Of a DNA stretch of 64,000 nucleotides, positions 2,086 to 49,301 are shown in pieces. The first letter of the stretch is position 1. Each line of letters opens with the position of its first letter. The notes under the pieces were generated by a model, which ran no database searches, had not been told where the DNA came from, and was given only the letters and a program-made list of their open reading frames with translations. Source of the stretch: Chiloscyllium plagiosum (Eukaryota); NCBI RefSeq assembly GCF_004010195.1, contig NC_057759.1, positions 7,241,593-7,305,592 of the forward strand. The letters run 5' to 3'. A program made the translations under genes and the position numbers.

Positions 2086-2132
2086 ATCTTCGGGGACAGT
2101 TCCAGTTGTTGGATCCCAGCTGATCATTGGAT
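2086..2132 (-). CDS. Candidate cytoplasmic exon, 47 nt (Y-PMISWDPTTGTVPED)
   Basis: ctcatatttttcag|ATCCAATG...GAAGAT|gtaagc; open as phase 1 to 0. Confidence 0.5.
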
Positions 2133-5100: not shown

Positions 5101-8100
5101 TTATATTGATAGTAATTATTAACTGGAAACTGAAAGACATGAATATTGAAATAAAACGCCAGGAATAAATCTACAGTGCAACAGTGAGTCACACGGTAAT
5201 AATGATCAAATACTAATTCTCACTAAAATGTGACGCATTAGTTAAATGGATATTTTTACTGAGAACACCTATAGAATGAAAAATTGTCTAGATGCCGGAA
5301 TTCTGTCCAATTGAAATTCAAAAATGCAATTGGTACTCAAATAGGGGCCACTCTGCATGTTGAACTAATCAATTCTGCATAATTATTAAGGATCAGATCA
5401 TGAGCCAATTACTAAATGTTCAATATTCCCAAATCCGTTTGTCATTTCCAATGGACTGAGAGCATTAGGAGCAAGAAACTCCACATTACTGATATCACTA
5501 ATACATTTGTTGAAGTCAACATGTTTGCCCACTTGAGGACAAAGAATTTACAAGTATTACACTTGCAGGTGTATTCAGTTTTACAATTAGTTGACAGTTA
5601 GAAAGTATATAATATGGAAAAGAAATATTTAAACATAGGAACAGGGTAGATTAAAAAAAACTATTTCCACTGGTTGGGGATTCGAGAACGAGGTGAGATG
5701 ATCGATGAATTTGGTCCAGTGCATTCATGTTAGATCTCAGGAAAAAGTTAAGTTAATAACATTATCCAGCACGGTTAGACGCGCTTCAGTAAAAGAAGTT
5801 GCACCTCAGGTCGCTGTTATATCTTTCCCCTATCACTTTTATCCTATGCTCTCGAGTTTCGGAATTCCATACCTGGGAAAAGACTTTGGCTAGTCACCTT
5901 ATCTATTCCCCATATGATATGCAAATCTCTAAAAGGTCACCCCTCAACCTCAAAGTCCCCAAGTCTATAATTTAAATCCTCGAATCCCGTCTACACCCTT
6001 GAAATCTTTTTCTGCTCCATTTTCAATTTAACAACATGCTTTGATTGGAAAGTACGAGCAGAATTTCCCCACAGTATTCAAAGGTAGTTTCATCAATATC
6101 CTGTATAGCTGCACCGTGATGTCCCAGTTCTTGTGCTCAGTGCTCTGACCAATGAAGGTAAACGTGCCAAACGCCTTCTTCACCACTCTGTCCAGCTGCG
6201 ACATCATTTTCAAACAAATATGTACCTGCACCCCGAATTCTCTCTGTTTGACAACGCTCCCCAGGGTCCTACAATTAACTGTATAGATCCTGCTCTGGTT
6301 TGTCTGAGCAATATGCATCGCCTCACACTTACTTAAATTCAACTCCATCTGCCAATCCTTATCCCACTTGCCAACCTAATCAAGATCTCGTTGTACTATT
6401 AGATAACTTTCTTCTGACTTCTGCACAAAAAGTGTTGAGGAGGGTTGGAACTATCTTCCACAAACATCAGTGGATGCTGGGTCTGTTGCTGATTTTAAAT
6501 TTGGGAAATTTCGATAAGTGAAAATATTGAACGGATAGGGGCCAAAGAATGGTATATGGCATTAGGCCACAGATCAGCCATGAATGGCCGAACAGGTTAC
6601 AGATTCTAAAGTCCTACTCCTGTTTCTATGCTCTTAAGTATTATTACCAAATTGATCCTAACACTTACAGTCGAGTGTGTGCATCCTAGTATCCTGATCC
6701 AAAGTTACAGGTCCTTCCCTGAAAGCGACAATAAACAGTTTTAAATGGCATTTTATGTTTCAGTTCTTCTGATCTGACAACATTGACAGAGTTCAAGCAG
6801 TTGATCTAATTATCTAACTGTGAAAAAAGCCAAAGAATCAGGAATGTCTGGTTAACTTGGTTAGGCAATTGAAGAGGTCACAAAATTAACAGACAACAAG
6901 AGAACAATGTACTCATTTAATATTCTATTGGTACATCGCAAATCCATAAGGAACAAATTCAATTGGATACAGGGAAATGGATTGCCATGTGGAATCATTC
7001 TAAAATATTAATCCAGAGGCCCAATAATATTCTTACGGTCTGGCTTCAAATCCCACCATGAAGGAATTCTAATTCATTTTTAAAAGAAATCTGTCATCAT
7101 GTGCTTAATAATGACTGATGAAGACCAGTGCACCAAAAGTCTCCTTCACTGTCCTGTTTATCAGTGAGTTCACTTTCAGAGATCTTTGTACCTGAACTCC
7201 AAGGTCCCTCTGTTCCACTACACTCCTTAAGGCCTTAGCGAATCATATAATCATAGAATCCCTACAGTGTGGAAACAGTCCCTTCTGCCCAATAAGTCCA
7301 CACCGACCCTCTGAAGAATAACCCACCTAGACCCATTTGTCTATCCTATTACGCTGCATTTACCACGACGATCGCACCTAACCCACACATACATGAATAC
7401 TACGGACAATTCAGCATGGCCAAGTCACCAAACCTGCACATCTTTGGATTGTGGGAAGGAATGAACACTTCATGTCAATAGTTTCTAAGGTTTTAAATGT
7501 AAAGTCGACTGACACATGAGACATATGGTCCCTTGCGAATCCACTACTACGACACTTCATGAGGAGAAGGATTCTGAGAATACTGCCCTGTTTCCCTCCG
7601 AGTCTCACACCACCCTGATTCGGAGCACTAACTGGTTCTTTCACTTTTGTCGGGTGAGAATAGTGGAATCCCCTTCCATCTAATCAGTATGGATCCAGCT
7701 ACCTACAAGATGAACTGAAGGGTCCCGAAGACAGTTGAAATGATACTCCCAGAGGGCTATTAGAAATGGGCATATCCTAGCCAGCAGCACCCACATCTCG
7801 TGGATTAATGATTGCAAATAATATTGGAACAAATCTATCAGTCAACGGATCAGAATGAACTCAATTATCTGAACATCTCCTGTAGACCCCCCCCCCCCCC
7901 CCCCCAACCCCCGACCAGTGCTTTGCCATTCTTCCTGAAACGTGGAATGCTTGAAAATTAGACCATATGTTACTCGAGGAAAGCAATTTCACTGCAACAT
8001 TCGTTCAAATGTACAGTTCCAAATTGAGATATGGTGCAACCTGAGAAATGCGATCAAAGAATATATCACTCTGAATAAATAACACACTTTTGCACTGGGT

Positions 8101-11100
8101 GACATGGTCGCAGTCGGTCGTATTATTCAAATTATTCAAAAGTCAATATTAGATGCATGCATGCAAAAAAAGGACAAGAAACATGCAACTCAATGCTTGT
8201 GTTAACAAAGACAAGACACAATTTTGTATCTCACCTGTTCCTTCCTGAATGGTTTGGTTTGTATATAGGATAAAAGAAGAGATAAATATCAGATAAATAT
8301 CGAAAATCATATTTCAGACATATTTCTGCTTATTTTGATGAAGACAGACTTTAAGCAAAAAGAGGTTGGATAGGCGATGATTCAATAAGACATAGAAGCA
8401 GAAATTAGGCCATTCAGCCAATCACGTCTACTCTGTCATTCAATCATGGCTGATAAGTATCTTCTCATCTCTATTCTTCCGCTTTCTCCCCGTAACACTT
8501 CAACCCCTTGATACTGAAGACCTATCTATCTTAATCTTAAATCTACTCAATTACCTGACCTCCACAGCCATCATTACTCTCTGGCTGAAAAAGATTCTCC
8601 TTATTTCCTTGCCAACCGGTCTTCCTTTTCTTATAAAGCTCTGCCCTCATGTCTTCGTCTCTCCTCCGAATGTAAACATCTTCCCACCATCCACTCTGTT
8701 CAGGCCACTCAGTATTCTGTCTGTTTCAATTAGATCCCCCTATGTCCTTCTAAACTCCATCAACTATAAACTCAGAGTTTTTAGTCAAAGAATTACTGCA
8801 GTGCAAACAGAATCCATTCGCTCCATTCATTCTGCACCCACAGTCTCAAGACGATCTCACCCAGTCCGCCAATTCATCACAGCTAAAGCGTTGCCATACA
8901 TGTACTTATCTATTTTTTCAAATGTTGCAACTGTACTTGCATGATTAGATTAGATTACATTACAGTGTGGAAACAGGCCCTTCGGCCCAACAAGTCCACA
9001 CCGACCCGCCAAAGCGCAACCCACCCATACCCCTAACCTAACAGTACGGGCAATTTAGCATGGCCAATTCACCTGACCTGCACATCTTTGGACTGTGGGA
9101 GGAAACCGGAGCGCCCAGAGGAAACCCACGCAGACACGGGTAGAATGTTCCACACAGTCAGTCGCCTGAGGCGGGAATTGAACCCAGGTCTCAGGCGCTG
9201 TGAGGCAGTAATGCTAACCACCGTGCCACCGTGCCGCCCGTGCATCTATCACTTCCGCTGACAGCTATTTTCATAAATGCACCATCCCCGTGCGAAAACG
9301 TTGCCCCTCAGGTTCCTTTTAGATTTTTCCTCTATCACGTTTAACCGATGCCCTCTCATTTTCTATATCCTGTTGGGTCAAAAGACCTTCGCTATTCACC
9401 TTATCTTTGCACTTTATTGTTTTATAAACTTTAATAAGATCACCCTTCAACCTCTTATGCCCCAGTGAAAAGGCTCCAAGCCGATTCAGCCTATCCTTAT
9501 AACTCAAAACTTACAGCCCTGACAACATGCCTGTAAATTTATTTGCACTTCCTCCAACTTAATAGCACCCTTCCTTTAGCAGCGGGAACTAGAACTGCAC
9601 ACGATACTGCGAACTTTGCCAGCCAACGTTAAGTACAACCTCAACATATAACCCTGCATTTCCCACATCTCGCCCACCTAGCTTGCACATTCCTGGAGAC
9701 TGCAGGTCCATTTAACAAGGTCAGTACAACTAAAGTGTCCATCTTTGGATTGTGGGAGGAAACCAGAGCACCCAGTGGAAACGAATGGCGTCACAGAGAG
9801 AGTATACAAACTCCATCGTGACAGTCACCCAAATCTGTAATGAAGCCATGGCGCCTTGCACTGTAAGGCATCAACGTTAACCACTGAGTCATCGTGCCAC
9901 TCACAATTTGCACCAGGAAAGATAATGGAAAATATATACCTTTCTTTTGTTCCACAAACTAAAAGAACAGTGCTTAGATATCTTGCCTCTAACTCATGCA
10001 AGGATGGCACATCTGCAATGTCAACAACGACGAAATATTTATAATACAGGTCTAACCAAAAGTCAGAGAGACCTGTTTACTTATGCTGAACGTTGAAATC
10101 ATATTCAGAAATTTAGTAAAAGATTTCATTTTGCCAAATTGTCTGCAGCTGAACAAGCAGAACAGTTCTTGAGGTAATTTAAACAAAAGGTACAAAATTT
10201 TAGATATCACGTTACTTAGTGAGATGAATGGAAGGTAGAGTGATGACAACAGTGTGGGTCCTATTCCCACAACAACTGAGGTTACTATGCAGTACTCTCC
10301 ATCACCACCAATGCCCTTGACTGTGGTATGATGACCCACAGGCTTAACCAACACCCGTTGGTTCTCTGTAAGAGAGAGCTGCTCTGTGATTGGGTAAGAC
10401 CGTGATGACTTTACTGTAAAGCAATTCATCTGCACATTGCTTTCCAATGGAGAAAGTATCACGGGATTTGGATTCTATTTCCCTCTCCTCACAGCTGCTG
10501 CCAGGCCTACTTAGATTTTTCAGCAATTTCTGTTTTTGTGTGTTTCAGATCTCCAGCATTTCGCAGTACTTTTTAAAAATAGAATCCCTAGTGTGGAAAC
10601 AGGTCTTTTGGCCCTTCAAGTCCACATTGACCCTACGAAAGGTAACCCACCCAGAACCATTCCCTTACACTATTACTCGACAAGTACACCTGACTAATGC
10701 ACCTAACCTACGCATCCCTGAACACTACGGGCAATTTAGTATGATCAATTCACCTAAACTGCACATCTTTGGATTGTGGGAGGAAACCAGAGCACCCGGA
10801 AGAAACCAAAGCAGACACGGGGAGAATGTGCAAACTTCAAATGGGCAATCGCCAGAAGCTGGAATTGAACATGGGTCCTGTGAGACAGCAGGTCCTAACC
10901 AATGAGCCACAGTGCCACAGTTTATACAAAGAATGTGGAAATTTAATGCCATCAGTATCAATTCCAGACATTGGGGATCTTACTGTAATGTCACCATATT
11001 TCCTGAAAACAACAGTCCTGCTGTCTTTCCAGAAGTAGTTGAACGTGAGTATCACCATGCCTCAGACGAGGGGAGAGGTTAAGAAAAGCTCTTCATGGTA

Positions 11101-14100
11101 ACGTCATCTATGACGGGATTTGAACCCAAAAGCTGACATTCCTCTGCATCGCAAACCAACCATCCAAACAACTGAACTAGACGAAAGGTGAGTACTGCAC
11201 ATGCTGGAGTACAGAGTCAAGATCTGAGTGGTGCTGGATAAGCACAGCAGGACAGGATCATCAGGAAGGGCTTTTGCCTGAAACGTCGATTTTCCTGCTC
11301 CTTGGATGCTGCCTGATTTGTTGTGCTTTACCAGCAACACTCCAATCTTGAAACAACTGAATTAACCGACCCAGGTCATCCGTAAAAAGTCTTCACATGT
11401 TCTGCATCACAAACCAGGGGCCGAATGACCTTCTCCTGCAACTAGCCTTTGCATTATCTCCATTCTTATTGATGGAAGGTGGAGAATGCACTCCAAATCA
11501 GAGAAATATGAGTTGCGCACTTAGTGCTACAGACTTCAAACAGATACATGCAGTGGTACATTTGTCAAACTAATTGGACATTACAATTTTTGAGCATATT
11601 AGAGTCATCGGGTCATGCAGACCAGAAACAGTCTCTCCATCCCAGTTCATTAATCCCTAAACTGAAAGAGTCTCAATTGCCGTCATTTGGCCCACCTACC
11701 TCTACGTTTTTCCTGTTCACGTTCCTGTGCAAATGTATTTTAAATGTTGCAATCGCAACTTCCTCTGACTAATCGTTCCATATACGCACCAGTCTCTGTG
11801 TGAAAAAGTTGTCCCTCAAATCCCTTCTCAATTTTTCGCCTCTCGCCTTAAACCTCTGCCATGCAGTTATTGGACTCTCCTACCCTGGGGAAAAGAGCTT
11901 GGCTATTCACCTTATCGATGACGCTCGTGATTTAATAAAGCTTGCTGTTATTGAAAGCGCAAATACCTCCTTTAATAATTATCAATGTGCAGATCAAAAT
12001 GAAGATGAACAGAAGTAGCAGCAGGGCAGATCCCAGAATAAACAGAAGTTGCATGTTAATTCCATCTGAAACAGATTGACAAAAACAAGTCTTGTCAAAT
12101 AACATACTGTTGCAATGGTAGTTTATAAATGTATATGCTTCTCTGAGTCCTTTCAAAACAGATACCCTCAAACACATTGCATAACTCAGCAGGTTAAATT
12201 CCAAACATGAGACAGATCCGATTGCGATACACAATGACAGGGGAATGCTGTTGGAGCTGGAAAGCACTTAGGTGTGGCCACAGCTGGAGCACTGTGTGCA
12301 GTTCCAGTCTCCACATTATAGGAATGACGTGATTGCGATGGAATGGGTGCAAAGGAGATTCCCCAGGATGTTGCCTGTGATGCAGCATTTCAGTGATGAA
12401 GAGAGGCTGGATAAGCTCAGGTTGTTTCCGTGTGGGAGAGAAGGTTGTGGACCTGTTAGAGGTGTGTAAGACTTCGAGGGTAATGGATGGGGGAATAGGA
12501 AGCAGCTGTTCCCCTTGATCGAACGAACAACAACAATGGGGGAGAGCATCATTTTAAAATGAACAAAAGGATGTTTGGAGGGGGACTTGAGGGTTGTTTC
12601 ACACAGAGGGTGATGGGGGTCTGGACTGCACTGGCCAGGAGTATAGTTGAGGAAGGAAACATCACAGCATTTTAAAAATAGCCCTTGAATGAGTACTTGA
12701 AGTGCCATAGAATCACAGAGATGTATAGCACTTAACCAGACCCTTTGGTCCAACTCGCCCATGCTGACCAGATATTCGAAACTTATCTAGTCCCATTTGC
12801 CAGCACTTGGCCCATATCCGTTGAATCCGTCCTATCAATCTATCACTCCAGATGCCTTTTCAATTTGTATACTTGCACCAGCCTCCACCACCTCCTTTGG
12901 CTACTTATTCCAGACACGCACCACCCACTGGGTGAAAAGGTTGTCCTTTAGTCCCTATTTTTAATAGTTCCTCTCTCACCCCAAACCTTTGCCCTCTAGT
13001 TCTGGACTGCTCTGCCAGGAGGGTCCTTTGTCTTTTACCTAAGAGCTTGTGCTGTCTCGTGCTCTGCCCTCATCAATTCTCTTTGTAATTTTTTCAGAAA
13101 ACTCAGTCAACTTTGTGAGACACGAATGTCCACGCACAAAGCCGTGCTAACCAGCCCTAATCAGTCTTTGCCTTTCAAAATATATGTTAATCCTGTCCCT
13201 TAGGATTCCTTCCAATAACGTGCCCAACGCCAATTTCAGACTCACTTCCTCATCACTTTTCTAAAATAAAGGCACTACGTTAGCCCATAACATTCAAGGC
13301 AATGGAGTACAGTGCGGGAAAGTTGGACTAGTGCAGACTCTGTGTAGCTTCGACTGTAAGCCTCGATAGGTCGAAAAGCCTCTTCTGTACTTTATGATTT
13401 GATCCTCACCACTGCTGTTTTAATTCGCAAAATTGATGTTCTTACATTTTAAAGTTTCTGAGTTCAAGATAACGTAATATCGATCAAAAACATCAACTCC
13501 CTCTTTTGGAAAATGAAGAAAAAGGAACAACGGGGATACAGATTTAAATTTACTCGCAAACGAATTCAGGAATGAACGAAATGAGGAAAGCATTTTTCAC
13601 CCAGTGAGTAGTTGGGCTGCAGAGTGCACTGCTTACAAATATGGTAGAAACACGTTCAACTGAGGCATTCGAAAGGGGTATGGGAAAGAAATGGTGTGTG
13701 CAGGGAGATGGGGGTGGGGGTTGAGAGAAGGCAAGAAATTGGTCCTAGGCTATGGAATGAGTCCAGGTATGGTGGAACCAATGGTCGCTTCCTGCTCCAT
13801 AATAATCGCGTGGATCTGTGAACAAAAATGATGTTTTTAGTATGTGTGCTTCATCATCATTCATAACACAACAGAACTGGCGTTCTCCTGAAAACAAAAC
13901 TGATAAGGTTTCGCAAAAGAAGGGCTCATATTTATTTATTTCTTCTTTTTGCCATGTTGATTCATTTTTTTTGCACAAATCAGGAGTCGACTCACCTGTA
14001 TGGTGAAGTTTACACGTGTCTGACTCTATCCATCTCCCACCAATGTCCACTTGATAGCGACATGAATACTCAATGTTCTTGCTTCGAAATGGAGGGACCA

Positions 14101-17100
14101 GGATATCCATGGCAGCAGAACTCTGACCAGAAAGCACTTGTGTGGAATCAATGAGGGTTTGAGAAAACTCGTAGAAAATAAATCTCATAGAAGGATAGGG
14201 AATTGGCGCTGTACAATTCACAGTGACATTTTGACCCTTTGCAGTTGGATAACCATGAAACTCTAGCAGGCAAGTCGGTTTCAGTATATGGTCTAAAGCA
14301 GGAAAATAAAGTGGAAATCAACCATTAAATTCAGGCGTTAAAAATATTTTGTTGATGAAGGGGAAGGCTTAGCTATAAGCATATAATTCACATATACATA
14401 TCAGATAACTACTGGTACTGCTAGATTGGCGCCATATCCACAAACACACACTCCGTCCAACACCGACGCTCAGTAGCAGCAGTGTTTACCATGCGCAAGA
14501 TGCAATGCAGACGTTCACCAAGGATCCTCAGAACAGTACCTTCGTTATCTAGAAGATCAAGGGCAAAAGATACATGGGAACACCAGCCCGTCTGAGCCCC
14601 TCGCTATCTCGACTTGAAAACATGTCGGCCGTTCCTTCAGTATGGCTGGGTCAAATTCCTAGAATTCTCACTGTAAGAGCATTGTGGGTCAACTTACAGC
14701 ATGTGGACAGCAGCGGTTTATGAAGACGGCTCACCACCACCTTCTCAATGTAGTGCACAGAGCTTAGGGACAAGGGAGCAATAAATGCTTGGCCCAGGTA
14801 GTGACACCTACATCTTGCAGGAGAACAGAAAATCAGCGCCTATATATACATAAATGATTTGGAGGAGATATAGGTTGTCACATTACTGTGTTTGCAGATG
14901 ACACTAAGTTTCATGGAGTAGCAGATAGTGAAGGAGACTGTCAGAGAATATAGCAGAATATAGATAGATTGGAGACATTGGCAGAGAAATGGCAGCTGGA
15001 GTTCAATCCGGACAAATGTGAGTTGATGCATTTTAGAAGATCCAATTAAAGAGCGAACTATACAGTACACGAAGAAGTCCTGGGGAAAGTTAATGTACAG
15101 AGAGATCTGGGTGTTCAGCTCCATTGTTCCCTGAAGGTGGCAATGCAGATCAGTAGAATGGTCAAGAAGGCATACGGCTTACCTTCATCGGGCGGGGTAT
15201 TAAGTACAAGAGTTGGGAGGTCATGGTACAGTTGTATAAGACTTTGGTTTGGCCACATTTGGAATATTGCATACAGTTCTGATTGACACATCACTAAAAG
15301 AATGTGGATGCTTTGGAGAGGGTGCAGAGGAAGTTGAACAGGATGTTGCCTGGTATGGAGGGTGCTAGCTATAAATAGATGTTGAGTAGATTAGGATTAT
15401 TTTCTTTGGAAAGACGGAGGTTGAGAGAGTTTGATAGATATTTTAAAAATCATGATAAGTGTAGACAGGATGGAGAGCAAGAAACTTTTTTCCTGAGGAT
15501 TGAATCACTAGTGGTCACGATTTCAAAGTGAGAGGGGAAAGGTTTAGGGGAGATATGCATGTAAAGTTCTGCATACGGACGGTGGTGGGTACCTGGAATG
15601 CGTTGCCAGTGGAGGTGGTAGTATTGGGAATGGGCAAGAAACAAAGGGATGCAGATCTTATGAAAATAGTTGGCAGTTTTAGATAGATGATTGGATCGGA
15701 GCAGGCTTGCAGTGCCGAAGGACTTGTTCCTGTGCTGCGATTTTCGTTGTTCTTTGTTCAATTAACCAGTGCAGGATTGCATATGAATAAATCAATCTCA
15801 ATCGATTTTTGAATGTGAACCTGATGTGATTATGAGAAAACATGTTCAGTTAAATCAATCAAGTTCTAAATCCAGTGCAAACTTAGAGGCACCCACCTTT
15901 TATCGTCAATATCATTGGATTGCTTTGCTTCGAACTGATCAATCGTTCTTCAACGACCATGCTGTACATGCATTTGTATTGTTCGACTCCAGGATTCACT
16001 GTCTCCGTGATGTTAAATATTCCTATCTGTCTCCCCTTCGTGATTATAGGGGGCACTGCTTCCAGTGAGTTGTTATTATTGTACAAATAAAACATCTTGT
16101 CTGAATCTTGAGTTGGAGCTTTGCAAGTCAACAGTAGCAATTCCCCCTTAATGACTGTTGTAAAATTCAGGTTCAGGGAAATCTCTGGTTCTGCAGGGCG
16201 ATCTGAAAGGGGATTCAAGTTTCAATTTGTGCACTAGCTAAACTTACAGTAATCTCTATTCATGTTGTTTACAATTTGGAATGTTTTTCATTGCAGGAGT
16301 GATTGAGGCCCCTGGATCTATCTCAATGGAGTTTAGAAGGATGGAGGCAATGTGATTGACACTTACAGAATGCCGAATGGCCTGGATATAGTGAATATTT
16401 CAACTTGTACAGCATCTGAATGAATGGATGACGCTTTAGAACTGAGATGAGAAGCAATTTCTTAAGCCAGAAGCTGTTGAATCGGTGGAACTGGTCGCCG
16501 CAGAGGCTGTGGAGGCCAAGTCATTGAATGCATTTAAGACAGAGATAGATAGGTTCTTGCTTAGTAAGGGGATCAAGGGGTATTTGGACAAGGCAAAACA
16601 AAGGGGTTAAGAAACACATCAGCCACTATTGAACATTGATGAAGGCTCGATGGGCCGAAGGGCCTAATTGTGCTCTCATGTCTTATGTCTGAAGGTGGTA
16701 AACCAATTCGAAGTATTGTTAAACTCACCGAACACAGGGACGAGAACAGAGACGCTGGTCTCCGAGTCTATCAATCGCCCGGCAATTCTTGCTTGATAGG
16801 CACACCAGTACTCTCCTGGGTCATTGGCTACAATCTGGAAATTGACAGAAGTGGAGCCACTGTCTTCACTGATCTCCTCAAGAGAATGGCCATTGGTGCT
16901 TCTATACAAAAAAAACTGGCGGACTGAGTACAGAACGTCCACTTGACATGTGATGCTGAGGGGTTCACCCTTCAAAAATATCCTCACAGACGCGTTGAGT
17001 TTGATTCGAGGCCTTTTAGGTCGTTCTAGATGAACACAGGAAGTGAAAACATGGAGGAGGTTAGCATTGATTCTCCCAGGGGTGGGGGAAAAAGACGTGT

Positions 17101-20100
17101 GAAATTGAAAGAGCAAACATATGTGGTGAATTCCACTTACCGACCACGTTCAAATACAGCTTGTCACTGAGCTCTGAATATCTCCGATGCCCAGAGACAG
17201 TCATCCCACACTCGCACATATAATATTCTGGCACAGCCGCCTGAATTTCGAAAATGGTGAAACTGTGATTTTGATCAGCAAAATGGCTGTGTGTTTTCTG
17301 CTCACCAGTATACAGGTAGAAACTGTAAGAGGACGATTGGAAATCTACACTGCAAGTCATGTTAACCAATTCGCCCCTGATGAATATGTTCTCGGAATGA
17401 TTCAGCGAGAGGCTCGGTTTCTGTGGTTTGTCTGCCAGAAATTGAAGGAAAAAATCAAATTGACGGCTAAAAATGACACTCGAGAAATCCAAAGCAGCCC
17501 CCTCTGAATTGGCACCACATCCACAAACATCAACTCCCACTACCTCCATTGATGCTCAGTAGCAACAGGGTGAACCATCTACAATATGCGGATCAGAAAG
17601 TCACCAAAGTTCCTCAAGGATGACTTTCCAATCGCACAACTGCTTCCATCTAGAAGGACAAAGGCCGCTGCTTCACTCCCTTTGACCCACTCACCATCCC
17701 CATTTGGGAAATATATCGGCGTCAGTGTCGCTGGATGAAACTCCTGGAATTCCTTTCCTGAGGGCATTGTGGATCTACCAACAGCACGTGGATTGCAGTG
17801 GTTAAAGAAAGCAGCTCACCACCACCTTCTCAAAGGGGCAACTGGGAATGGAGTGGGCCCAGACAGAGACGTCCACATCGCCCAAATGAATGAAGAAATA
17901 TAAAATATATTATGATAAAATACATCTTGCATAGACTGCGCCATCTTCAGATTCAATGATTGTGAAGCAAGTGAAACATTATCCTTTTGTGCATTAAAGA
18001 GTGCTATTTCACTTCCTAAACTGTGTAGAATCACATAAAGTTGTGCTTATGTTAGAGACAGGTGATAAGCAGATCCCTTCTGAAAAAAGGCATTGTGCAT
18101 TGTCCTCTGTACTTTATTGTTTGGATGTTCATGATTCAGTGTGTATCTACTAATTCCATCATTTGCTTAGCTCACTGAGGAATTCAATCACCGATTGTAA
18201 TCTCCACGTTTCACTGCAGAAATTCACCAATAAACCTCAGACAGCATCTTCCAAACTCATCAGCCCCTTCTATGTGGACCAAGAAGAGCAGCAGATGGGA
18301 CCACCACACTCTGCATGTTTCCCCTCTGAGCCACTCAACATCCCGACTTGGAAATATTTTGGCCCTTCCCTTCAGCATTGCTGGGTTCGAAATATTAGAA
18401 TTTCCTCTCTAACGGTATAGTTGGCCTAACTACAGAACATGGGATGCATCGGTTCACCACCACCACCTTCTGAAGTGGATAGCTGCAGATGGACAATAAA
18501 TGTTGAGCCCCACATCCCATGAGAAAATACAAAGAGAGAATTAAAGCTTGCATTGTTGGAATGAATGAAAAGTGCAAAATACACAGAAAATTAACAGGGG
18601 TTAACCATGAGTACTTACCAATAACTGTTACATAGACTGAGTAACTCTGCTCTGAGCTCAACAAGCTTTGCTCCAATGTAAGTTCGCAAGAGCAGGTAAA
18701 CATTTCGCGTGCGGTTATTGGAATTTCAAAAGTTGCCATGTGGTAATTGAAGTCACTTTGAACATTCGAGTTTGTCAGCTTTTGTCCGTTTCTGTGTAAG
18801 TAGAGTGAAGAGCACGAATACTTGGAGCTGAGGTAGCACTTGATTTTTGCATGATGTCCAAAGATGAATGTGCTGAGGCCACCATCCAACTCAATGGATG
18901 GGGTCACAGGACGATCTAAGACAGACAGAGAGAGAGAGAGAGAAAAGACATGGCGAGAGTAGAAAGAAAATAGAGAAATGTCGGAACACAATTTCAAAAA
19001 CAAAATAGCAGAGAACTGTGGAGGATGCTGGAGGTCGGAAACAAAAACAGAAATTACTGCAGAAAATCAAAAAGTCTGGCACGATCTGTAGGAAAAAATC
19101 AGAGTAATGTTTCGACTCCAATGACTGTTTCTACACTGCTGACAAGGAGTTTGGGGCCAGAGCAAATATGCAATATACAAACTTGAATGAGCACAGATTT
19201 AAGATCAATGGGGAAAGTATATGCATCGATAGATTCTGATTTTATTTGAAGAATAGAGGAAGTGCTAATTGTCTTGTACTAATTGTTCGAGTTGGCGATT
19301 GAAACTAAAGTAGTCGATGATTTCAAAAGGTGGAATGATGGACACTCAATTGAAATAAAAAAATGCAGTGATGTTGAGGGAGTTGAAATGAATGAATTGA
19401 TACCTGCGTTTAGGTGGTTCCTTTACTCTAAATGTGTTTTTACCACAGCCCCTGAATGCTTTCTTCCAATAAAGAGACTGTAGCTTAACCTAGGCCCAAC
19501 CAGGTGAGGGGAGAGTTTGAAAAGGAGGATCCTTCATAATAAGCTGAGCTGATATAGGAATTGAACCCTCTTTTGAGCGTCACCCTGCATTACAAACCAA
19601 CTGTCCGGCTAATAGACACGACCCCTTGGTTGCCCACTCCGCCAAGTAATTATTTCTATGATTATGTGGTCACAGGTAAAACTTACAATTCTCAAGCATC
19701 CTCACAGAACGTGGTTAAACTTTTCAAAATCCTGAGCTGTATGGGTAGGATTGCCATGATTAGAGCGGGTTTAATAAACAAAAACGAGAGGCCCTTTATT
19801 CGTGGTGACATGTGAAAGAAGCAAGGGCGTTCAAGTAGACAGAAAAGCTTGTTTTCTTACTTAGCAACTATTTTGCGTGTGCAACGTTCTACCTGGGGAG
19901 GCAGGTTCAATTGAGGCATTGGAGAGGGTACATCAGATGGTTACTTGGATAGAAATGGAGCTTGCAGAGATATGGAGAAAAGGCAAGAGATTGACACTAG
20001 AACATGGAGACAAACGAGATAATAGAACTGGGTTGGATAATAGAGCTAGAGTAGATTATAGAGCTGGGATGGATTATAGAGTTAAGCCAGATAATAGACC

Positions 20101-23100
20101 TGTAATAAATTATAGAGATGGGCTAGATAATAGAGTTGGACGAGGTAATAGGACTTTACTGGATAATTGGACTTAACTGCACGAGATAATAGAACTGGAC
20201 TAGATTTCACAGCACGACTGGCTAATGGAGCCAGATGAAACAATGGAGCTGGGCTATATTATAAAGGTAGCATAGATAATAGAACTGGGGTAGATTATAA
20301 ATATTGCCTCGACAATAGAACTGGGCAACATTAAGGAGCTTGCCTAGATAAAAAGCTAGAGTAGACAATACAGCTGGACTAGATAATAAAACAGGGCTAG
20401 ATAATCGAGCTGGAGTAGATAATTGAGTTGTGCCAGATAATATATATTCATGTAGCACAATGGCGTGGATGGTCTCTCTCTCTCTGCATCATAACAATTC
20501 TGTCATTGTCTGCAATAACATGTGGACGCAGCTTTCAAGGTCAGCCATAACTGATGAAAGGAAATATTTTTTAAAAAACATTTAAAAATATTTGAATATC
20601 TCTTTCTTGGCATCGCCTTTGCCCTTAAGACTGTCAACATGCAACCTTGTTGGATCATTCTCAGGTCAATTAGAGCATGAAATTTTATCTGTCAGTCGAT
20701 CGATCGATCTATCTATCTATCTATCGATCTATCTATCTATCTATCTATCTATCGATCTATCTATCTATCTATTTATCTATTAAGAAATACCATGCTTTCT
20801 TAACGTTATAAATTTCTAAACAGTTAGTGAAAAGATCTCAGTTTTGTTTGAACTGCAGAATTATTTTCGATCAACTTCACGAACATTAAAATTAACACCT
20901 TGTTTAGAATTTAAAGCCGAATGCTGCATGTGAAGCACACCCTGATAATATATCATTCAGACATATTTTGAATCTGTATCACTTTTAGTTGGTGTCTCAC
21001 TGAGTTATAGAGACACGGAGTCATTCCGCATGAAAATAGATCCTTCGGCCCAAATTCCATGCTGAGCAAGTTTCCTACACTGAACTCGTACCATTTGCCC
21101 ATGGGTGACTAATACTACTCTAAACATTTCCTATCTATGTATCGGTCCAAATGTCTTTTACATATCTTCCAATATCTTTTACATACAATTTATAACTACA
21201 TCCACCTCCACCATTTTCATCAGAAGCTTATTCCATACACGCACCACATTCTTCGTCCCTTGGGTCCCTTCTAATGTTTTCCCCTCTCCTTAAAAGTATG
21301 CATTCTTGCTTTGGACTCCCCCATCCCGGGAAAATATCTTGGTGATTCACGTTATCTCTGGCCCTTATGCTTATATAAACCTGTATAAGCTCGCCCCACA
21401 GCCTCCTACACAGCGGGAGAAAAAGTACCAGCCAACCAACCGCTCCGTCTAACTCCAAATTTCCAGTCTCCGGAACATCCTTGTAAATCTTTTCTGTACA
21501 ATTTGCAGTTTGTTAACATTTCTCCTATAGCAGGGTGATCAAATGCGAACTTATCCATGTCGTGTACAACTATAACATGAAGTCCCAACTCAATGTACTC
21601 AATGTTCTGACCGATGAAGGTAAGTGTGCCAAATGGCTCCTGCACCACCCTTTCCACCCGTAATACCACTTCCAATGAACTATGTGCCTTCAGCTCTGGG
21701 TTTCTTCTTTCGACAATGCACCCCAAGACGTCATCATCAATTGTGTAAGTCTTACCCTGATTGGTCTTAACAAAATGTAACATCTCACTTTCACCTGACT
21801 TGAACTCCATCTATCATTCCCCAGTACACACTGGCCCACTTGATCAAGATCCCGTTATAATCTTCTACACTGTCGAGCATATCACCAAATGTAGTGTCAT
21901 CCGCAAGACTACTAACCATGCCTCCCACAAAAGCATTTATTCTTTTTTGAAAAAGAAATTCTACCTCATACGAATGTTCCAAACACTTACCGATCACATT
22001 AAGATGCAATGGATCACTGCGTTGCAAAACTTCCTGTTCCCCAGCTCCTCTCAGATTGTACACACACGTATACGTTTCTGTCAGATTGGGGGCAATTTGA
22101 AAGGAAGCAGAACACAGTTTGCCAGCCGTCCGCGCTCTAGAAATAGCTTTTGCTTTGCTGCTTCTCAACAGAGAAACCCGAGAGTTTTCACAGCCGCTGT
22201 GAAACGTGCAGACAATTTTAACGTTTTCACCTCGAACGACAGCTTCCAACGAAGGTTTCATGGCAATATTCGGCTTCCTTTGACCTTCACGTCAACACAC
22301 ACACACATACATACACAGAGAAAAGTTGAATATTAGGACTCAATAAATATTCAAGAAAACGGTAGAGATCCTTTTTTTTTTACACATGTTGCGCATGCCA
22401 GTGCTGAAACTTGCTTCATAGTTTGGACGAATTGATATCCACACCCCAACAAACAAGCATGTTTCTCATAACATTAACCAAACTTTGCTTCTATTTGCAA
22501 GGATTCTGTGATGCAGTCGCTCTGTCGAGGTCAGGAAAAAACCTGGCTATAGATGCTACAACTGTGGCAGAAATACATATTCTCCCTCTGTGCAGAAAGT
22601 AGATAGGCCCTATTGGTTTAGCAAGAATGACTAGAAGGGTGGAAGACGTTTTGGGGGTGGGGGAATACACATTGATATTTTCTTTGAACTTCAGTTGCTA
22701 TTTTTGGAGTGGGTCGTGTATTCTAAACTTACTCTGATCACCTGAAATAAGAGAATTCATCATCACTTGGTCCAAAACTCCCTAAGGCATATGAAAACTG
22801 CAAACTTTCCGTAGGATTGTGTGTATGATCAACTCTTTGTTTAAAAGGAAAGAATTGATTCACAGGCTGAGAACATCAATTGCCTTTCTGTAATTTCCCC
22901 ATGTAATCATAAGGCATGGGAGCATAATTAGGCCATTCGGTCCATAAATTTTCTCTACCATTTGGTCATGACTGATATGTTTCTCAAACCCATTTTCCTG
23001 CCTTCTCCTGTAACCTTTTTTTAAGACCATACAAATGGTGAACACATATCTATCTCTACCCTAAATACCGTTAATATCGTGACCTCCACTGCCCTCTGCA

Positions 23101-25456
23101 GCAATGATTTCCGCAGAATCATCACCCTCTGGCTGAAAGAATTTCTACTCATCTCAGTTCTCAAGGTCCGTCCCTTCACTGTGCCCTCTGATCCTCGTCT
23201 CTCCAGCAAGTGGTAACGTCTTCTCGACGTCTACTCTGTCATTGCCTCTCAGTGTCTGACCCAGATGGGGCAGGCAACAGTCACCACATTGACTGTCGTC
23301 AGAAGTCATGTGTAGACCCAGTCGAGGTAAAGAGGACAGATGTCCTTCCATAAATGGTCTTAGCAAAGCAGGGATCAAACGACACGTTTCATCATCACAC
23401 TCTTAATGTTACTTTTGGTTTTCCATTCAAATTTCAACATCTGTCAAGTGGGATTCAAACCCAAATCCCCAGAACATTTTATTATTGTCTATGTTCATGG
23501 CAAACACTTTTTCTTGATTTCATTTGATGATTTCTCCTTGTTTTCACCATTTATTGTTCTGTATTTCCATCTCTGCTTGGCCAGCTTCTTAGGGGTTATC
23601 CTTAGGTTGGAGGGAATGTCTTATGAGCAAAACCTAAACAGATTGGGACTCGACTCTCAGGGGTTCCTAACGAGAGATTATCTCATTGAAACGTATAGGG
23701 GCTTGACAGGATCAATGCGGAGAAGATGCTCATCCCTCTGAACGAGTGTAGGGGCAGACAGCACAGTCTCAGAATAAAGAGAGGCCAACTGAAGATTGAG
23801 ATGAGGAGCATTTTTTTTTCTCCGAGGATTGTAAGACTTATTTAAGAATTATTTGACAAGTCAGAGATATGGAGGCAGAATCTTTTTATACATTTACGTC
23901 AGAGATAGATAGATTCTTCTTCAGTCAGCGAATCAAGGGTTAAATAGAAAGTTCAAGAACGTGAATTGAGGAATGTCAGATCAGCGACGATCCTATTGTT
24001 CCATGGAGCACACATGGAGGCAGAATCACCTACTCCATGTATTTATTTCTGACGATCTTATCTGAATGCATCTATAATAGTAACTTAACTTTCTTTCCAT
24101 AATAGTGGACTTTTAACTAATTGAATTGACAAGGGAAGGTGATTTGTTGACTGAACATTTACTGATGTATCAAGACTGAAAATAAAATGTTCAAACAGAA
24201 CGTAAAATATGTTACTCAGGTCCAAATTGTTTGCATTGTCCTGTCAGGGTACCAACAAGGTGAGATAGCTGTTTCACAACAGAGCCTAAAGTGGACTATT
24301 TGAAGTGACGGTCATTTCGCTTTGCATTCAAGCAGAGCTTAAATACCAATCAAATAAAAAATATTTTTAAACTTATTGTCATTTATGCTTTTTAACACTG
24401 CCTTCAATATTGCAATCACTGCCATTAATGTTGCAGCAAGACGTGTTTACTAACCTTTAGAAACAACGAGAGAAGCCATGGTTAGTAGTGCTAATGGAAA
24501 TAGAAAGGACGACAATGTTACTATATCAATGTCAATCACACGAAGGAACAAATAGAGGTAATAAACAAGTAACAGTTATTGCAGCTGTTTCTTCTCAACG
24601 GCCGTATTTAAAAACATGTAACTCTCAGACAAGCAAATCAAGCAATGATTAAAATTAAGGCTCACATTTGTGACGTTTAGAGATAAATTATGTTTCGAAT
24701 TTGAGTGCTCGCCAGGCGAGTAGTTTAGGTTTTTAATCTCCCTTTCTCTTCAAAGGTGCTTCCAGACCTATTGAGCTTCTCCACAACTTTCTGTGCTTAT
24801 AGTCTGTCACATTAACTGCTGTTTTTTGCTGTTCCCTCTCGCCACGAATCCTATTATATTTCTCCGGCAATTTCTGTCTTTATGATCTGTCACAGTAACT
24901 CTTTTACTTTCTCTCCCTCTCTCCACATGTCATAGAGTCACAGCGTAATCGAGAAGTACAGCACAGAAACAGACCTTTCGATCCAGCTCATCCATGCCCA
25001 CCAGATATCCCAACTCAATCTAGTCCCACCTGCCAGCACCTGGCACATATCCCTCCAAACCCATCCTATTCATTTACCCATCCAGATGCATTTTAAGTGC
25101 CCTGTCAGACATGCAGAATTTCTCCAGCACTTTTTGTGTTTATAACCTGTAATGTTAACTCTAGTTTCTCTCTCCCTCTCTCCACAAATGATGCCAGATT
25201 TGCGAAATTTCTCCAGCACTTTCTATGTTTATAACCTGTAACAAAAACTATGGTTATTTTTCTGATGCTCGCACAGACGCTGTCAGACCTGCTGAGTTTC
25301 TCCACCAATTCTCTGGGTTTGTTCCAGATTTCCAGCGTCTTACAGCATCTTGCTTTTATGCAAGGCTTTCCCTCTATTGCCACTGTGGGTACTATGTTAA
25401 GAAAAGGAGATATTGCATTACTTACAGAAGAAAATAATGCATGTATTCAAACCCAT
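2086..25456 (-). CDS. Multi-exon gene for a six-Ig-domain type I transmembrane receptor, LRC-type (LILR/PIR/CHIR-like); 3' end unresolved
   Basis: Exons 25456-25426, 24490-24455, 22284-21991, 18915-18619, 17431-17141, 17025-16729, 16202-15897, 14292-13996, 12065-11967 all have AG/GT boundaries and join in phase 1 into one 1948-nt open frame (leader, 6 Ig, TM). Candidate tail exons 9958-9940, 6718-6669, 2132-2086 extend it to 688 codons without a stop. Confidence 0.85.
2417..2709 (-). mobile_element. tRNA-derived SINE (HE1-like) inserted in a CR1 fragment spanning about 2370-3140
   Basis: A/B-box head (GGTAGCACAGTGG...GGTTCAATTCC), conserved core, (TCTAA)n tail; CR1 text resumes at 2712. Confidence 0.85.
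4050..4950 (+). mobile_element. Old degenerate CR1 3' fragment
   Basis: Remnants of HLEY, QRTFAGLIP, RTRSH.LK motifs. Confidence 0.7.
5790..6410 (-). mobile_element. Degenerate CR1 fragment
   Basis: ORF 6028..6348 MELNLSKCEAMH...VVKKAFG. Confidence 0.75.
6669..6718 (-). CDS. Candidate cytoplasmic exon, 50 nt (EGPVTLDQDTRMHTLD)
   Basis: ttgtcgctttcag|GGAAGG...CTCGACT|gtaagt; strong sites in non-repetitive sequence; open as phase 2 to 1. Confidence 0.55.
8944..9239 (-). mobile_element. Full-length young tRNA-derived SINE nested in a CR1 3' fragment
   Basis: Near-identical to 2417-2709; TGCAT on both flanks is a possible target-site duplication. Confidence 0.88.
9940..9958 (-). CDS. Candidate cytoplasmic micro-exon, 19 nt (VCGTKE-R)
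   Basis: ctgttcttttag|TTTGTGGAACAAAAGAAAG|gtatat; phase 1 to 2 fits the TM exon and the 6718 exon. Confidence 0.5.
10580..10918 (-). mobile_element. Older tRNA-derived SINE
   Basis: Core gcacatctttggattgtgggaggaaaccagagcacccgga and degenerate head. Confidence 0.75.
11967..12065 (-). CDS. Transmembrane exon (DGINMQLLFILGSALLLLLFIFILICTLIIIKG), no charged residue in the helix
   Basis: 99 nt, tctgtttcag acceptor, G|gtattt donor, phase 1-1; about 25 consecutive uncharged residues. Confidence 0.85.
12270..13290. mobile_element. Nested CR1 fragments (plus 12270-12705, minus 12710-13290)
   Basis: WPQLEHCVQF...VQRRFPRMLP; 13050-13240 resembles 720-905. Confidence 0.75.
13996..14292 (-). CDS. Ig domain D6 exon (DHILKPTCLL...GQNVTVNC...YSCRY...SDTCKLHHT)
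   Basis: 297 nt, ttttcctgctttag acceptor, gtgagt donor; overlaps ORF 13745..14221. Confidence 0.9.
14840..15760 (+). mobile_element. CR1 3' fragment
   Basis: YINDLEE, FADDTK, WQLEFNPDKC, PHLEYCIQF motifs. Confidence 0.85.
15897..16202 (-). CDS. Ig domain D5 exon (DRPAEPEISL...GELLLLTC...FYLY...YKCMY...SNPMILTIK)
   Basis: 306 nt, cctttcag acceptor, gtgggt donor; inside ORF 15883..16218. Confidence 0.9.
16729..17025 (-). CDS. Ig domain D4 exon (ERPKRPRI...GEPLSITC...FFLY...DPGEYWCAY...)
   Basis: 297 nt, tag acceptor, gtgagt donor; DxGxYxC motif; inside ORF 16676..17116. Confidence 0.92.
17141..17431 (-). CDS. Ig domain D3 exon (DKPQKPSLSL...GELVNMTC...FYLY...YMCEC...SELSDKLYLNVV)
   Basis: 291 nt, cag acceptor, gtaagt donor; inside ORF 17061..17549. 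Confidence 0.9.
18619..18915 (-). CDS. Ig domain D2 exon (DRPVTPSI...KIKC...FTCSC...SYSVYVTVI)
   Basis: 297 nt, polypyrimidine+tag acceptor, gtaagt donor; inside ORF 18395..19003. Confidence 0.9.
20017..20440. repeat. Degenerate 18-bp minisatellite (consensus about GATAATAGAGCTGGGCTA) in the D1-D2 intron
   Basis: Roughly two dozen units; visible as hexapeptide periodicity DNRxGL in ORF 19877..20176. Confidence 0.85.
20697..20780. repeat. (ATCT)n microsatellite
   Basis: Direct observation. Confidence 0.95.
21010..21920 (-). mobile_element. Degenerate CR1 fragment downstream of D1; counterparts at 36950-37410 (-), 35740-36650 (+), 63050-64000 (+)
   Basis: SSLADDTT / MEFKSGESEMLHF (ORFs 21406..21810, 36932..37300, 62977..63246). 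Confidence 0.8.
21991..22284 (-). CDS. Ig domain D1 exon (GQRKPNIAMKP...VKIVC...YTCVY...SDPLHLNVI)
   Basis: 294 nt, phase 1-1, donor gtaagt; B- and F-strand Cys, C-terminal SDPLxL motif; overlaps ORF 21791..22261. Confidence 0.9.
24455..24490 (-). CDS. Leader mini-exon S2, 36 nt (SLLTMASLVVSK-G)
   Basis: cctttctatttccattag|CACTACTAACCATGGCTTCTCTCGTTGTTTCTAAAG|gttagt; completes signal peptide MGLNTCIIFFSLLTMASLVVSKG. Confidence 0.8.
25426..25456 (-). CDS. Leader exon S1 (MGLNTCIIFF), 31 coding nt
   Basis: aaagATGGGTTTGAATACATGCATTATTTTCTTCT|gtaagt; consensus donor, phase 1, hydrophobic; homologous copies recur in the paralogous cassettes. Confidence 0.8.
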
Positions 25457-35000: not shown

Positions 35001-35706
35001 GGATGTACGACCCATCCCAAAATTAGCAAATTAAGATAAAAGAAAACATTTATATATCTCCATCCAACTCCGCCGCCACCCCCGCTCGCTAACTCTCCCC
35101 CTCCCCCCAAGGATCTAATCGTTTCTGGAACATAACACAACAGATCTAACTCCTGTTCACAGAGCTAAGACACTTTCCTGGCGATTTTGTGGGATCTGAA
35201 ACCCAGGGTTCTCCTGGCTTAGAAATGGGGACTGCATCACTGGAACCTTGAAGACTTTTGTTCTGTACCGTCTCTCCAAAAAACTTGTTGATCGCAAATA
35301 TACAACGTGCATGCGCTTGTGAGAAAGAACGCCTGTGCGTGAGAGAGAGATAGAGACACAGAGAGAGACAGGGGGAGAGAGGGTGGGAGGAGAGAGAGAT
35401 GCGTGCTAACATGAAGGTCAAAGGAAGTTGAAAATCACGCTGAGGCGGTCGTTAGAATCTGTCGTGCGAGGTGAAACTTATCATTCTCTGCACATTTCAC
35501 AGCATCTCTGAATATTTGTGGGTTTCTCTATTTCGAAGCAGCGAACTGGAGGCTATTTCTGGAGGGCAGATGAGCGGCAAATTGTGTTTCACTTCCTTTG
35601 CAGTTGCAGGCAGTGTGAGAGACATACACATTTGGATGCAATCTGAACGAAGCTGGGAAGCTGGAAGCTTTGCAACTCAGTGATCTATTGCATTTTAGCA
35701 TAATAA
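32060..35706 (+). pseudogene. Inverted 5' cassette, unit A plus strand: S1 32060-32090 (MYLITYFILF, intact donor), degenerate S2 ~32871-32906, frameshifted D1 35417-~35706
   Basis: Homologous by eye to S1/S2/D1 of the intact gene; S2 lacks acceptor AG; D1 (GQRKLKITLRRSLESVVRGE.../IILCTFHS...GKLCFTSF) is frameshifted with no donor; no D2-D6 follows. Confidence 0.8.
33361..33680 (+). mobile_element. Older SINE shared by all three units (also 47445-47760, 60806-61125)
   Basis: Same head, core and flanks in A, B and C, so it predates the triplication. Confidence 0.8.

Positions 35707-37948: not shown

Positions 37949-37979
<31 letters not shown>

Positions 37980-44198: not shown

Positions 44199-44199
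<1 letters not shown>

Positions 44200-44272
<73 letters not shown>
44200..44272. repeat. (TG)n microsatellite, expanded in unit B only
   Basis: Paralogous sites at ~28690 and ~55683 have only 3-5 units. Confidence 0.95.
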
Positions 44273-44273
<1 letters not shown>

Positions 44274-46655: not shown

Positions 46656-46818
46656 CTTGTTTTGTGTTTCTGAGCATTAAAGGTTGTCAAATAACTTTTT
46701 ATAGAAAAGAAGTTATAACAGTTGCAATGAGAGTTGCTGGAATTATGACATTTATTTGTTCCCTAGTGTGATTGATGTGGATAAAACTACCATTGTACAT
46801 TTTTTCTATTTATTTCCA

Positions 46819-49300: not shown

Positions 49301-49301
49301 T

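What the first reader, a model, noticed from the sequence alone, without database searches (positions are those of the whole stretch)
2086..25456. Intact six-Ig LRC-type (LILR/PIR-like) receptor with a 36-nt leader mini-exon in a probable cartilaginous fish
Seen: 31-nt S1, 36-nt S2, six phase-1 Ig exons and an uncharged TM in one open frame. Domains lack the C-strand Trp (FxLY-like instead), start with P-x-x-P or KP, and end in S-x-x-S-D/N-x-L-like motifs. Established: LILR, KIR, FCAR and chicken CHIR split the leader with a 36-nt exon, whereas FcR/FCRL use 21 nt; mouse PIR has six such domains. Inference: this is an early-branching LRC-family immune receptor, probably non-activating because the TM has no Arg/Lys. 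The ORF track shows only fragments of it.
Basis: partly seen in the sequence, partly recalled or inferred. Interest (0 to 1): 0.75.

Follow-up and report, generated by a model that had tools for sequence, protein, structure and literature searches.

The report
Shark inhibitory LILR-like immune receptor
This is an intact, spliced bamboo-shark gene for a six-Ig-domain surface protein whose tail carries tyrosine motifs; it likely acts as an immune "brake" receptor related to mammalian LILR/KIR receptors, which would place that receptor lineage in sharks, where a published screen found none.

Summary
The 31-nt and 36-nt leader exons, six phase-1 Ig exons and uncharged TM splice without a stop. Public RNA contigs show the S1-S2, S2-D1, D1-D2, D3-D4 and D5-D6 joins. 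The gene equals RefSeq's uncharacterised Chiloscyllium plagiosum LOC122544686 (717 aa). It ends 10 kb outside the window in an ITIM-type motif shared with a Mustelus orthologue, so it is likely inhibitory. This scan noted that last exon before (e1-9377784).

Family placement is likely, not proven. A confident model of D4 matches LRC domains first (PIR-B Z 13.4, CHIR 12.9; FcgRI 10.3, FCRL5 9.6). The domains fall outside the Trp-bearing FCRL/LITR clade. Against this: whole-protein search ranks FCRL5 first, no mammalian tree was possible, and the LRC marker CNOT3 is on another chromosome. The "36 versus 21 nt" rule is not diagnostic here, because neighbouring shark FCRL-type genes appear to use 30 nt. 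Six domains do not indicate PIR orthology.

New here: LRC-type and clear FCRL-type genes are interleaved on this small chromosome, which bears on the proposed common origin of the two families.

The parts
25426..25456 (-). S1: first coding exon, 31 nt from ATG
   Evidence: joined to S2 in RNA contig X2 record 13
24455..24490 (-). S2: 36-nt leader mini-exon
   Evidence: joined to S1 and to D1 in X2 record 13 (13 letters on the D1 side)
21991..22284 (-). Ig domain D1
   Evidence: D1-D2 join in X1 and X2
18619..18915 (-). Ig domain D2
   Evidence: no Pfam hit alone; aligned with orthologues
17141..17431 (-). Ig domain D3
   Evidence: D3-D4 join in X1
16729..17025 (-). Ig domain D4 (modelled; LRC-type fold)
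15897..16202 (-). Ig domain D5
   Evidence: D5-D6 join in X1
13996..14292 (-). Ig domain D6
11967..12065 (-). Transmembrane exon, uncharged core
8235..8244 (-). 10-nt tail micro-exon used by the RefSeq model; weak acceptor, no read seen. A 19-nt candidate at 9958-9940 keeps the same frame
6669..6718 (-). 50-nt tail exon
   Evidence: RefSeq model; no read seen
2086..2132 (-). 47-nt tail exon; with the previous exon it forms LDYPMI (Tyr670). The final exon with YVYDTV and the terminal SLYATV (Tyr713) lies outside the window at G000:C50:7231238-7231140 (L007:9646-9548)
35400..63044 (.). Broken duplicates of the gene's 5' end (S1, S2, D1 copies on both strands, with stops or frameshifts; no D2 or TM copy)

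Best explanation
This is an intact, spliced gene for a type I membrane protein with six C2-type Ig domains, an uncharged TM and a tyrosine-motif tail; it likely works as an inhibitory leukocyte receptor of the LRC (LILR/KIR/CHIR/OSCAR) domain lineage. Shown: exon structure, open frame, five splice joins, orthologues in other sharks and rays, and conservation of the terminal motif in Mustelus. Predicted: the LRC-type fold of D4. Inferred from how LILRB and PIR-B work: ligand binding to the ectodomain leads a Src-family kinase to phosphorylate Tyr713 (and perhaps Tyr670/Tyr690), which recruits SHP-1/SHP-2 and damps activating signals. The ligand is not known; a self surface protein such as MHC class I is my first guess. 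It belongs to a chondrichthyan expansion and is not a one-to-one LILR or PIR orthologue.
For: Frame and joins. Orthologues at 35-63% identity in Heterodontus, Mustelus, Scyliorhinus, Stegostoma, Cetorhinus, Pristis and Mobula. Tail: Mustelus P0006 ends in the same motif with one change, and the upstream tyrosines align in P0006, P0007 and P0012. LDYPMI fits the ITIM consensus printed in PMC3601082; SLYATV fits the broader consensus (recalled). Fold: D4 model pLDDT 94. Against 48,161 representative chains the top 8 are all LRC (Z 13.4-11.8; PIR-B rmsd 1.8 over 89), versus FcgRI 10.3, CD22 10.1, FCRLA and FCRL5 9.6, FceRI 9.4. In the second look, 49 of 50 listed entries are LRC (redundant entries). 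Single-domain profile: best domains LILRA6 27.4, PIR-B 21.9, LILRB1 21.7 bits versus FCRL5 13.8. Domain tree of 631 representatives: a 217-domain clade (153 with C-strand Trp) holds 12 of 15 shark-FCRL and 77 of 81 LITR-like domains and 0 of 40 orthogroup domains. All six domains score higher on a Trp-less turtle 'IGSF1-like' profile (28-55 bits) than on a shark FCRL profile (8-30 bits). Control: one true shark FCRL domain alone finds FcgRI at E 5e-13, while D3 alone finds no single-domain match better than E 0.1.
Against: Whole-protein phmmer ranks FCRL5 (62.8 bits), FceRI and FcgRI first, with KIR3DL1 last of 13. The orthogroup profile ranks CEA 92.6, PIR-B 86.1 and FCRL5 83.4, and two-domain FceRI nearly equals four-domain LILRB1. 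With the single-domain profile FceRI (42.4 bits) equals LILRB1 D1D2 (40.9). ESM Atlas features list FCRL2 and IGSF1-like clusters at the same score. Only D4 was modelled well; the full-length single-sequence model failed. PECAM-1 scores Z 11.6, within 1-2 of the LRC rows, and the FCRL5 chain compared had only 264 residues, so membrane-proximal FCRL domain types were probably not tested. Identities to LRC domains are 15-24%. The tree has no mammalian sequences and weak deep support, and D6 sits beside three shark FCRL domains at 0.745. The turtle and teleost groups were found by similarity to the query and mostly assigned by eye. CNOT3 is on C39, with no Ig exon in the 200 kb around it. No read for the tail exons was seen in my calls, and no tissue information was available.
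Confidence: 0.65

Rival explanations
1. An inhibitory receptor of a separate, old C2-set family that branched near or before the LRC/FcR split. It works like LILRB but belongs to neither family; the LRC-like fold is the ancestral state.
For: Sequence scores are split between LRC and FcR/FCRL. A turtle relative and a white-shark relative also rank FCRL5 and PIR-B together. The gene shares a chromosome with FCRL-type genes, not with CNOT3.
Against: The fold comparison puts many different LRC members (PIR, CHIR, LILR, OSCAR, KIR, NKp46) about 2-4 Z above all FcR-type chains.
Confidence: 0.17
2. A diverged member of the FcR/FCRL/LITR lineage that lost the C-strand Trp, acting as an inhibitory FCRL-like receptor, possibly for immunoglobulin.
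For: FCRL5, FceRI and FcgRI top the whole-protein search. It lies about 146 kb from an FCRL-type gene. The Mustelus orthologue carries the automatic name 'Fc receptor-like protein 5'.
Against: True shark FCRL domains are recognised at once and look different. 0 of 40 orthogroup domains fall in the Trp-bearing FCRL/LITR clade. The fold ranks FcR-type chains lower. The total score against nine-domain FCRL5 is inflated by domain number.
Confidence: 0.14
3. A CEACAM-, CD22- or PECAM-type adhesion receptor with an ITIM.
For: CEA tops the orthogroup profile and the D3 search. Two relatives carry the automatic name 'CEACAM5-like'. PECAM-1 scores Z 11.6.
Against: There is no N-terminal V-set domain: D1 is a 97-aa two-Cys C2-type domain like the rest. 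The best single CEA domain scores only 14-16 bits. CD22 scores Z 10.1.
Confidence: 0.04

Closest known systems
RefSeq LOC122544686 (Chiloscyllium plagiosum, 'uncharacterized protein', P0001)
   Same: Identical 717-aa product from the same 13 exons.
   Different: The record carries no family or functional assignment.
Mouse PIR-B and human LILRB (LRC inhibitory receptors)
   Same: C2-type Ig ectodomain (PIR has six domains), uncharged TM and ITIM tail (PMC10679719). They give the best fold match and best single-domain profile scores.
   Different: About 15-20% identity. No A1/A2 domain pairing. One or two consensus ITIMs versus four in PIR-B. Not linked to CNOT3. Ligand unknown.
Chicken CHIR-B / turkey TILR-B; LRC group B (IGSF1, A1BG, OSCAR)
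   Same: Two-exon leader, one exon per domain, uncharged TM with ITIMs (PMC3601082). CHIR-AB1 Z 12.9 and OSCAR Z 12.5. A long ectodomain of diverged domains resembles the proposed group B ancestor (PMC6557307).
   Different: CHIR/TILR have 1-2 domains; no orthology shown.
FCRL / Xenopus XFL / teleost LITR
   Same: Multi-C2 paired receptors with a split leader and tyrosine motifs; top total score in whole-protein search; clear FCRL-type genes are neighbours.
   Different: No C-strand Trp, separate clade, lower fold scores, S2 of 36 nt versus 21 nt (mammal) or a candidate 30 nt (shark FCRL-type).

Membership tests
LRC family (LILR/KIR/CHIR/OSCAR/IGSF1) | C2-type Ig domains with LRC-type fold | tested here: met
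   D4 only: top 8 of 48,161 chains are LRC; 49 of 50 listed. D1-D3, D5 and D6 were not modelled well.
LRC family | Signal peptide split over two exons, one phase-1 exon per domain | tested here: met
   Shared with FcR-like genes (PMC2413239), so not discriminating.
LRC family | Second leader exon of 36 nt as a family marker | tested here: inconclusive
   S2 is 36 nt. The 36-nt rule is recalled and was not found. Shark FCRL-type neighbours have a candidate 30-nt S2, and some LRC-type relatives have leaders that fit 30 nt by protein length (inference).
LRC family, inhibitory form | Uncharged TM plus cytoplasmic ITIM | tested here: met
   Motifs present, terminal one conserved in Mustelus. Phosphatase recruitment was not tested.
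LRC family | Domains cluster with LRC A1/A2 or B subtypes in a phylogeny | not testable with these tools
   No mammalian LRC sequence was held as a record. Profile scores lean to LRC per domain but FceRI is close.
LRC locus | Linkage to framework genes (CNOT3, NDUFA3, PRPF31, LENG8/9, TTYH1, RPS9) | tested here: inconclusive
   CNOT3 is on C39 (not met for this marker). NDUFA3 and LENG9 families hit unplaced contigs. Tweety hits only C21 and C24; SAC3_GANP hits C31, C7 and an unplaced contig; Ribosomal_S4 hits C9; Prp31_C gives none. 0 of 7 marker families hit C50. Some accepted LRC-family genes also lie outside the locus (PMC6557307).
LILR/PIR proper | Ectodomain built from A1 plus A2 domain pairs | tested here: not met
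   D1, D2 and D3 form one clade (0.908) and D4 with D5 another (0.898); no alternating pattern.
LILR/PIR proper | MHC class I binding and leukocyte expression | not testable with these tools
   Runs are coded, with no tissue given.
FcR/FCRL/LITR | FcR D1-D5 domain subtypes recognisable by sequence | tested here: not met
   Control domain finds FcgRI at E 5e-13; D3 finds FceRI only at E 0.04; 0 of 40 orthogroup domains are in the FCRL/LITR clade.
FcR/FCRL | 21-nt second leader exon (PMC2413239) | tested here: not met
   S2 is 36 nt with RNA support; the rule is not universal in that family.
CEACAM / CD22 | N-terminal V-set domain (recalled) | tested here: not met
   D1 hits Ig_2/Ig_3, not V-set, and has the same size and Cys spacing as D2-D4.

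The most novel reading that the evidence does not exclude
Cartilaginous fish have a true LRC-lineage paired-receptor family, with ITIM forms like this one (also in a chimaera, P0083) and TM-arginine forms (Mustelus P0068, Pristis P0073). On bamboo-shark C50 these genes are interleaved with genuine FCRL-type genes, and the two types share a chromosome-size contig in Stegostoma too. The cluster would then descend from one ancestral locus that predates the separation of the LRC and Fc-receptor complexes.
Probability: 0.3. Interest if true: 0.75.

Novelty: new member of a known kind. Interest (0 to 1): 0.5.

Why it matters
When LRC-type receptors arose is an open question (PMC6557307). A 2014 screen reported neither LRC-type nor FCRL genes in sharks (PMC4016189). 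An expressed, ITIM-bearing receptor with an LRC-type fold and orthologues across sharks and rays would move the lineage back to the base of jawed vertebrates, alongside MHC and rearranging antigen receptors. It would also give a concrete candidate for 'missing-self' style inhibition in sharks. [quoted passage not shown] The gene model itself is already in RefSeq, and several shark relatives carry automatic LILR-, IGSF1- or A1BG-like names, so the novelty lies in the placement, not in the gene's existence.

Tried and rejected
Full-length single-sequence AlphaFold model: pLDDT 37, not used. Run search: no holder on record as RNA. Single-cell runs X7 and X8 gave only repeat reads or none, which is no evidence either way. 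The first read lay was swamped by repeats. CEACAM chains are absent from the 50 rows; absence from a list does not exclude them. Marker searches with no hit (Prp31_C, Pex19) show nothing about absence. The TCR-zeta family gave one hit, on C12, not identified further. Exon prediction over 1.36 Mb contiguous plus 40 sampled 10-kb pieces of C50 found no recognisable LRC or FcR framework gene; these candidates were judged by eye and not run through Pfam, so small exons could be missed. No activating (TM-arginine) paralogue was found in the fetched C50 DNA (TM exons are hard to find this way). The leader of the second LRC-type gene at 7.71 Mb could not be fixed (the script stopped before its last two steps). 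Total bit scores against multi-domain PDB chains were rejected as a family test because they scale with domain number. Nine paper searches returned no description of this shark family, and four of them returned no source for the 36-nt rule (searches are all ten; one search was aimed at the LRC paper). Subscription journals are mostly missing from the library, and no supplements were read. No complex prediction was run, since no ligand candidate was in hand.
Full report
OBSERVATION. Spliced by coordinates they give 649 residues without a stop, every junction is phase 1 with AG/GT ends, S1 is 31 nt and S2 is 36 nt. A homologue search with D4 returned the window's own product, RefSeq LOC122544686 of Chiloscyllium plagiosum, 717 aa, 'uncharacterized'. 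That model uses three more small exons in the window (8244-8235, 6718-6669, 2132-2086) and a last exon 10.4 kb beyond its left edge, at C50:7231238-7231140. The 13 exons reproduce the record exactly.

EXPRESSION. Two runs of one study (X1, X2) hold contigs that match the exons at 99-100%. They are guessed to be RNA and are labelled as a different organism from the DNA holders. X2 record 13 covers S2; its loose ends are the 3' 30 letters of S1 and the first 13 letters of D1. D1-D2 is seen in both runs, and D3-D4 and D5-D6 in X1. That is 5 of 12 junctions. The other seven were not in the rows shown, and the three most 3' lay wholly or partly outside the stretches laid. Depth is low (2-10) and the tissue is unknown.

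ANATOMY AND MECHANISM. The protein has a 22-residue leader, six two-cysteine Ig domains of 97-102 aa, an uncharged TM and a tail of about 70 aa. The tail has three tyrosine motifs: LDYPMI, YVYDTV and the terminal SLYATV. The first fits the ITIM consensus printed in PMC3601082 (passages read); the last fits the broader consensus that allows Ser at -2 (recalled). The Mustelus orthologue P0006 ends in the same motif with one conservative change, and the upstream tyrosines align in other orthologues, although their -2 residues do not fit the consensus. Several orthologue models end differently or lack the tail, which may reflect prediction errors in small exons. By analogy with LILRB signalling (PMC10679719, passages read), I infer ligand-induced tyrosine phosphorylation, SHP-1/SHP-2 recruitment and inhibition. 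None of this was tested, and the ligand is unknown.

RELATIVES. The representative search gave 643 proteins at E<=0.001 and listed 150; I looked up names for 30. Close orthologues or paralogues come from Heterodontus (three), Mustelus, Scyliorhinus, Stegostoma, Cetorhinus, Pristis and Mobula. Four full-length relatives have leaders of the same length as the query. More distant shark, ray, chimaera, amphibian and turtle proteins carry inconsistent automatic names: CEACAM5-like, FCRL5, IGSF1-like, A1BG-like, LILRA6. The wider family includes ITIM-bearing forms (for example P0013, P0083, P0111) and two with an arginine at the start of the TM, P0068 and P0073, though not in an NxxR motif. This suggests a paired-receptor family.

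WHICH FAMILY. Sequence alone is ambiguous. The whole protein ranks FCRL5, FceRI and FcgRI first. The orthogroup profile ranks CEA, PIR-B and FCRL5 about equally. These totals scale with domain number. With a single-domain profile, the best domains among the four alignments shown are LILRA6 27.4, PIR-B 21.9 and LILRB1 21.7 bits against 13.8 for FCRL5, but FceRI's two-domain total equals that of LILRB1 D1D2. Structure is clearer. D4, folded with a 40-row alignment, has pLDDT 94. In an unfiltered comparison with 48,161 chains the first eight rows are PIR-B, CHIR-AB1, LILRB4 (twice), OSCAR, KIR3DL1 and LILRB1 (twice), Z 13.4-11.8. They are followed by PECAM-1 11.6, FcaRI 11.2, ICAM-5, ICAM-2 and LAIR1 11.1, FcgRI 10.3, CD22 10.1 and FCRL5 9.6. 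Foldseek and the second look agree. Limits: one domain, a predicted model, and membrane-proximal FCRL domains probably not represented. A FastTree of 631 representative domains (from 1205; no mammalian references) keeps all 40 orthogroup domains out of the Trp-bearing clade that holds most shark FCRL and LITR-like domains; deep support is modest. D1-D3 and D4-D5 form their own clades, so the match to PIR's six domains is coincidence.

NEIGHBOURHOOD. The rest of the window holds only broken copies of the gene's 5' end, on both strands. Along 6.54-7.91 Mb of C50 there are further Trp-less, LRC-type Ig exons at 6.89-6.90, 7.47-7.53 (many broken), 7.71-7.72 and 7.85 Mb. Between them lie FCRL-type genes at 6.97-7.09 Mb, the nearest about 146 kb from this gene. 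One of their domains finds FCRL5 at E 1.6e-34 and FcgRI at 5e-13, and RefSeq names relatives FCRL or FcgRI-like. Four of 40 sampled 10-kb pieces elsewhere on C50 also contain Ig exons. Related LRC-type exons occur on C38 and C47. The FCRL-type genes have matching candidate leaders of 31 plus 30 nt, consistent with the N-termini of P0172 and P0181. The 21-nt rule (PMC2413239, passages read) therefore does not appear to hold in sharks, and the leader length is at best weak support. None of seven LRC framework families hit C50. CNOT3 is on C39 with no Ig exon in 200 kb around it, and NDUFA3 and LENG9 are on unplaced contigs. The locus test is thus negative for one marker and open for the rest.

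LITERATURE. PMC4016189 (passages) reports no FCRL and no C2-only LRC homologues in shark genomes. PMC6557307 (abstract, introduction, passages) says the time of origin of the LRC is unclear. PMC8562567 (passages) dates it to ray-finned fish through LITR. PMC13262535 (passages) lists KIR/LILR as mammal-specific. PMC8302630 (one passage) places the LRC on a proto-gnathostome microchromosome. PMC2413239 argues for a common FcR/KIR origin. My searches found no paper on this shark family, but the library lacks most subscription journals and I read no supplements.

VERDICT. This is a real, expressed gene that RefSeq already predicts but no paper I found has studied. It works like an inhibitory LILRB/CHIR-B receptor (likely) and carries LRC-type domains (about 0.65). 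It is not a LILR or PIR orthologue and is not shown to be in the LRC locus. The most interesting aspect is the mixed LRC-type and FCRL-type cluster on a small shark chromosome. Interest 0.5.

Noticed in passing
G000:C50:6969345-7001000 (+) and 7054000-7085017 (-); L064-L067, L073-L076: Two seven-domain FCRL-type genes with Trp-bearing domains, candidate 31+30-nt leaders and tyrosine-motif tails, in a group where a 2014 screen reported no FCRL.
   Followed up: partly
G000:C50:7711224-7717050 (-); L082-L083: A second multi-domain LRC-type gene, closest to white-shark P0078 ('alpha-1B-glycoprotein-like'); leader and tail exons not fixed.
   Followed up: partly
G000:C50:6889692-6897700 and 7466088-7530527; L116-L117, L038-L044: Further Trp-less Ig exons of the 'IGSF1-like' type, many with stops or frameshifts: a birth-and-death cluster.
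   Followed up: partly
window 35400-63044: Several broken copies of the S1-S2-D1 end of the gene in both orientations, within large segmental duplications; one S2 copy is 35 nt.
   Followed up: partly
window 9958-9940 (-): A 19-nt candidate micro-exon with a better acceptor than the 10-nt RefSeq one and the same phases; possible alternative tail exon.
   Followed up: partly
G000:C38:226915-250405 and C47:8884303-8935308: Two more groups of LRC-type Ig exons on other chromosomes; some hit the Pfam HIDE1 (Ig_C19orf38) family.
   Followed up: no
P0005, P0009, P0018, P0021: Large shark and ray proteins that combine this Ig type with scavenger-receptor (SRCR/DMBT1-like) domains, judged from names and N-termini.
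   Followed up: no
L100:2141-3115 and L101 (C50 about 7.89 Mb): First conserved non-Ig gene beyond the cluster; looks like HERC1 (recognised from memory, not tested). Could be a real neighbour or a scaffolding join.
   Followed up: no
L008:508-1230 (C50 about 7.212 Mb): Degenerate histone H3-like sequence (recognised from memory) downstream of the gene.
   Followed up: no
L013, L035, L106, L165: Fragments of retroelement-like pol ORFs; observed only.
   Followed up: no
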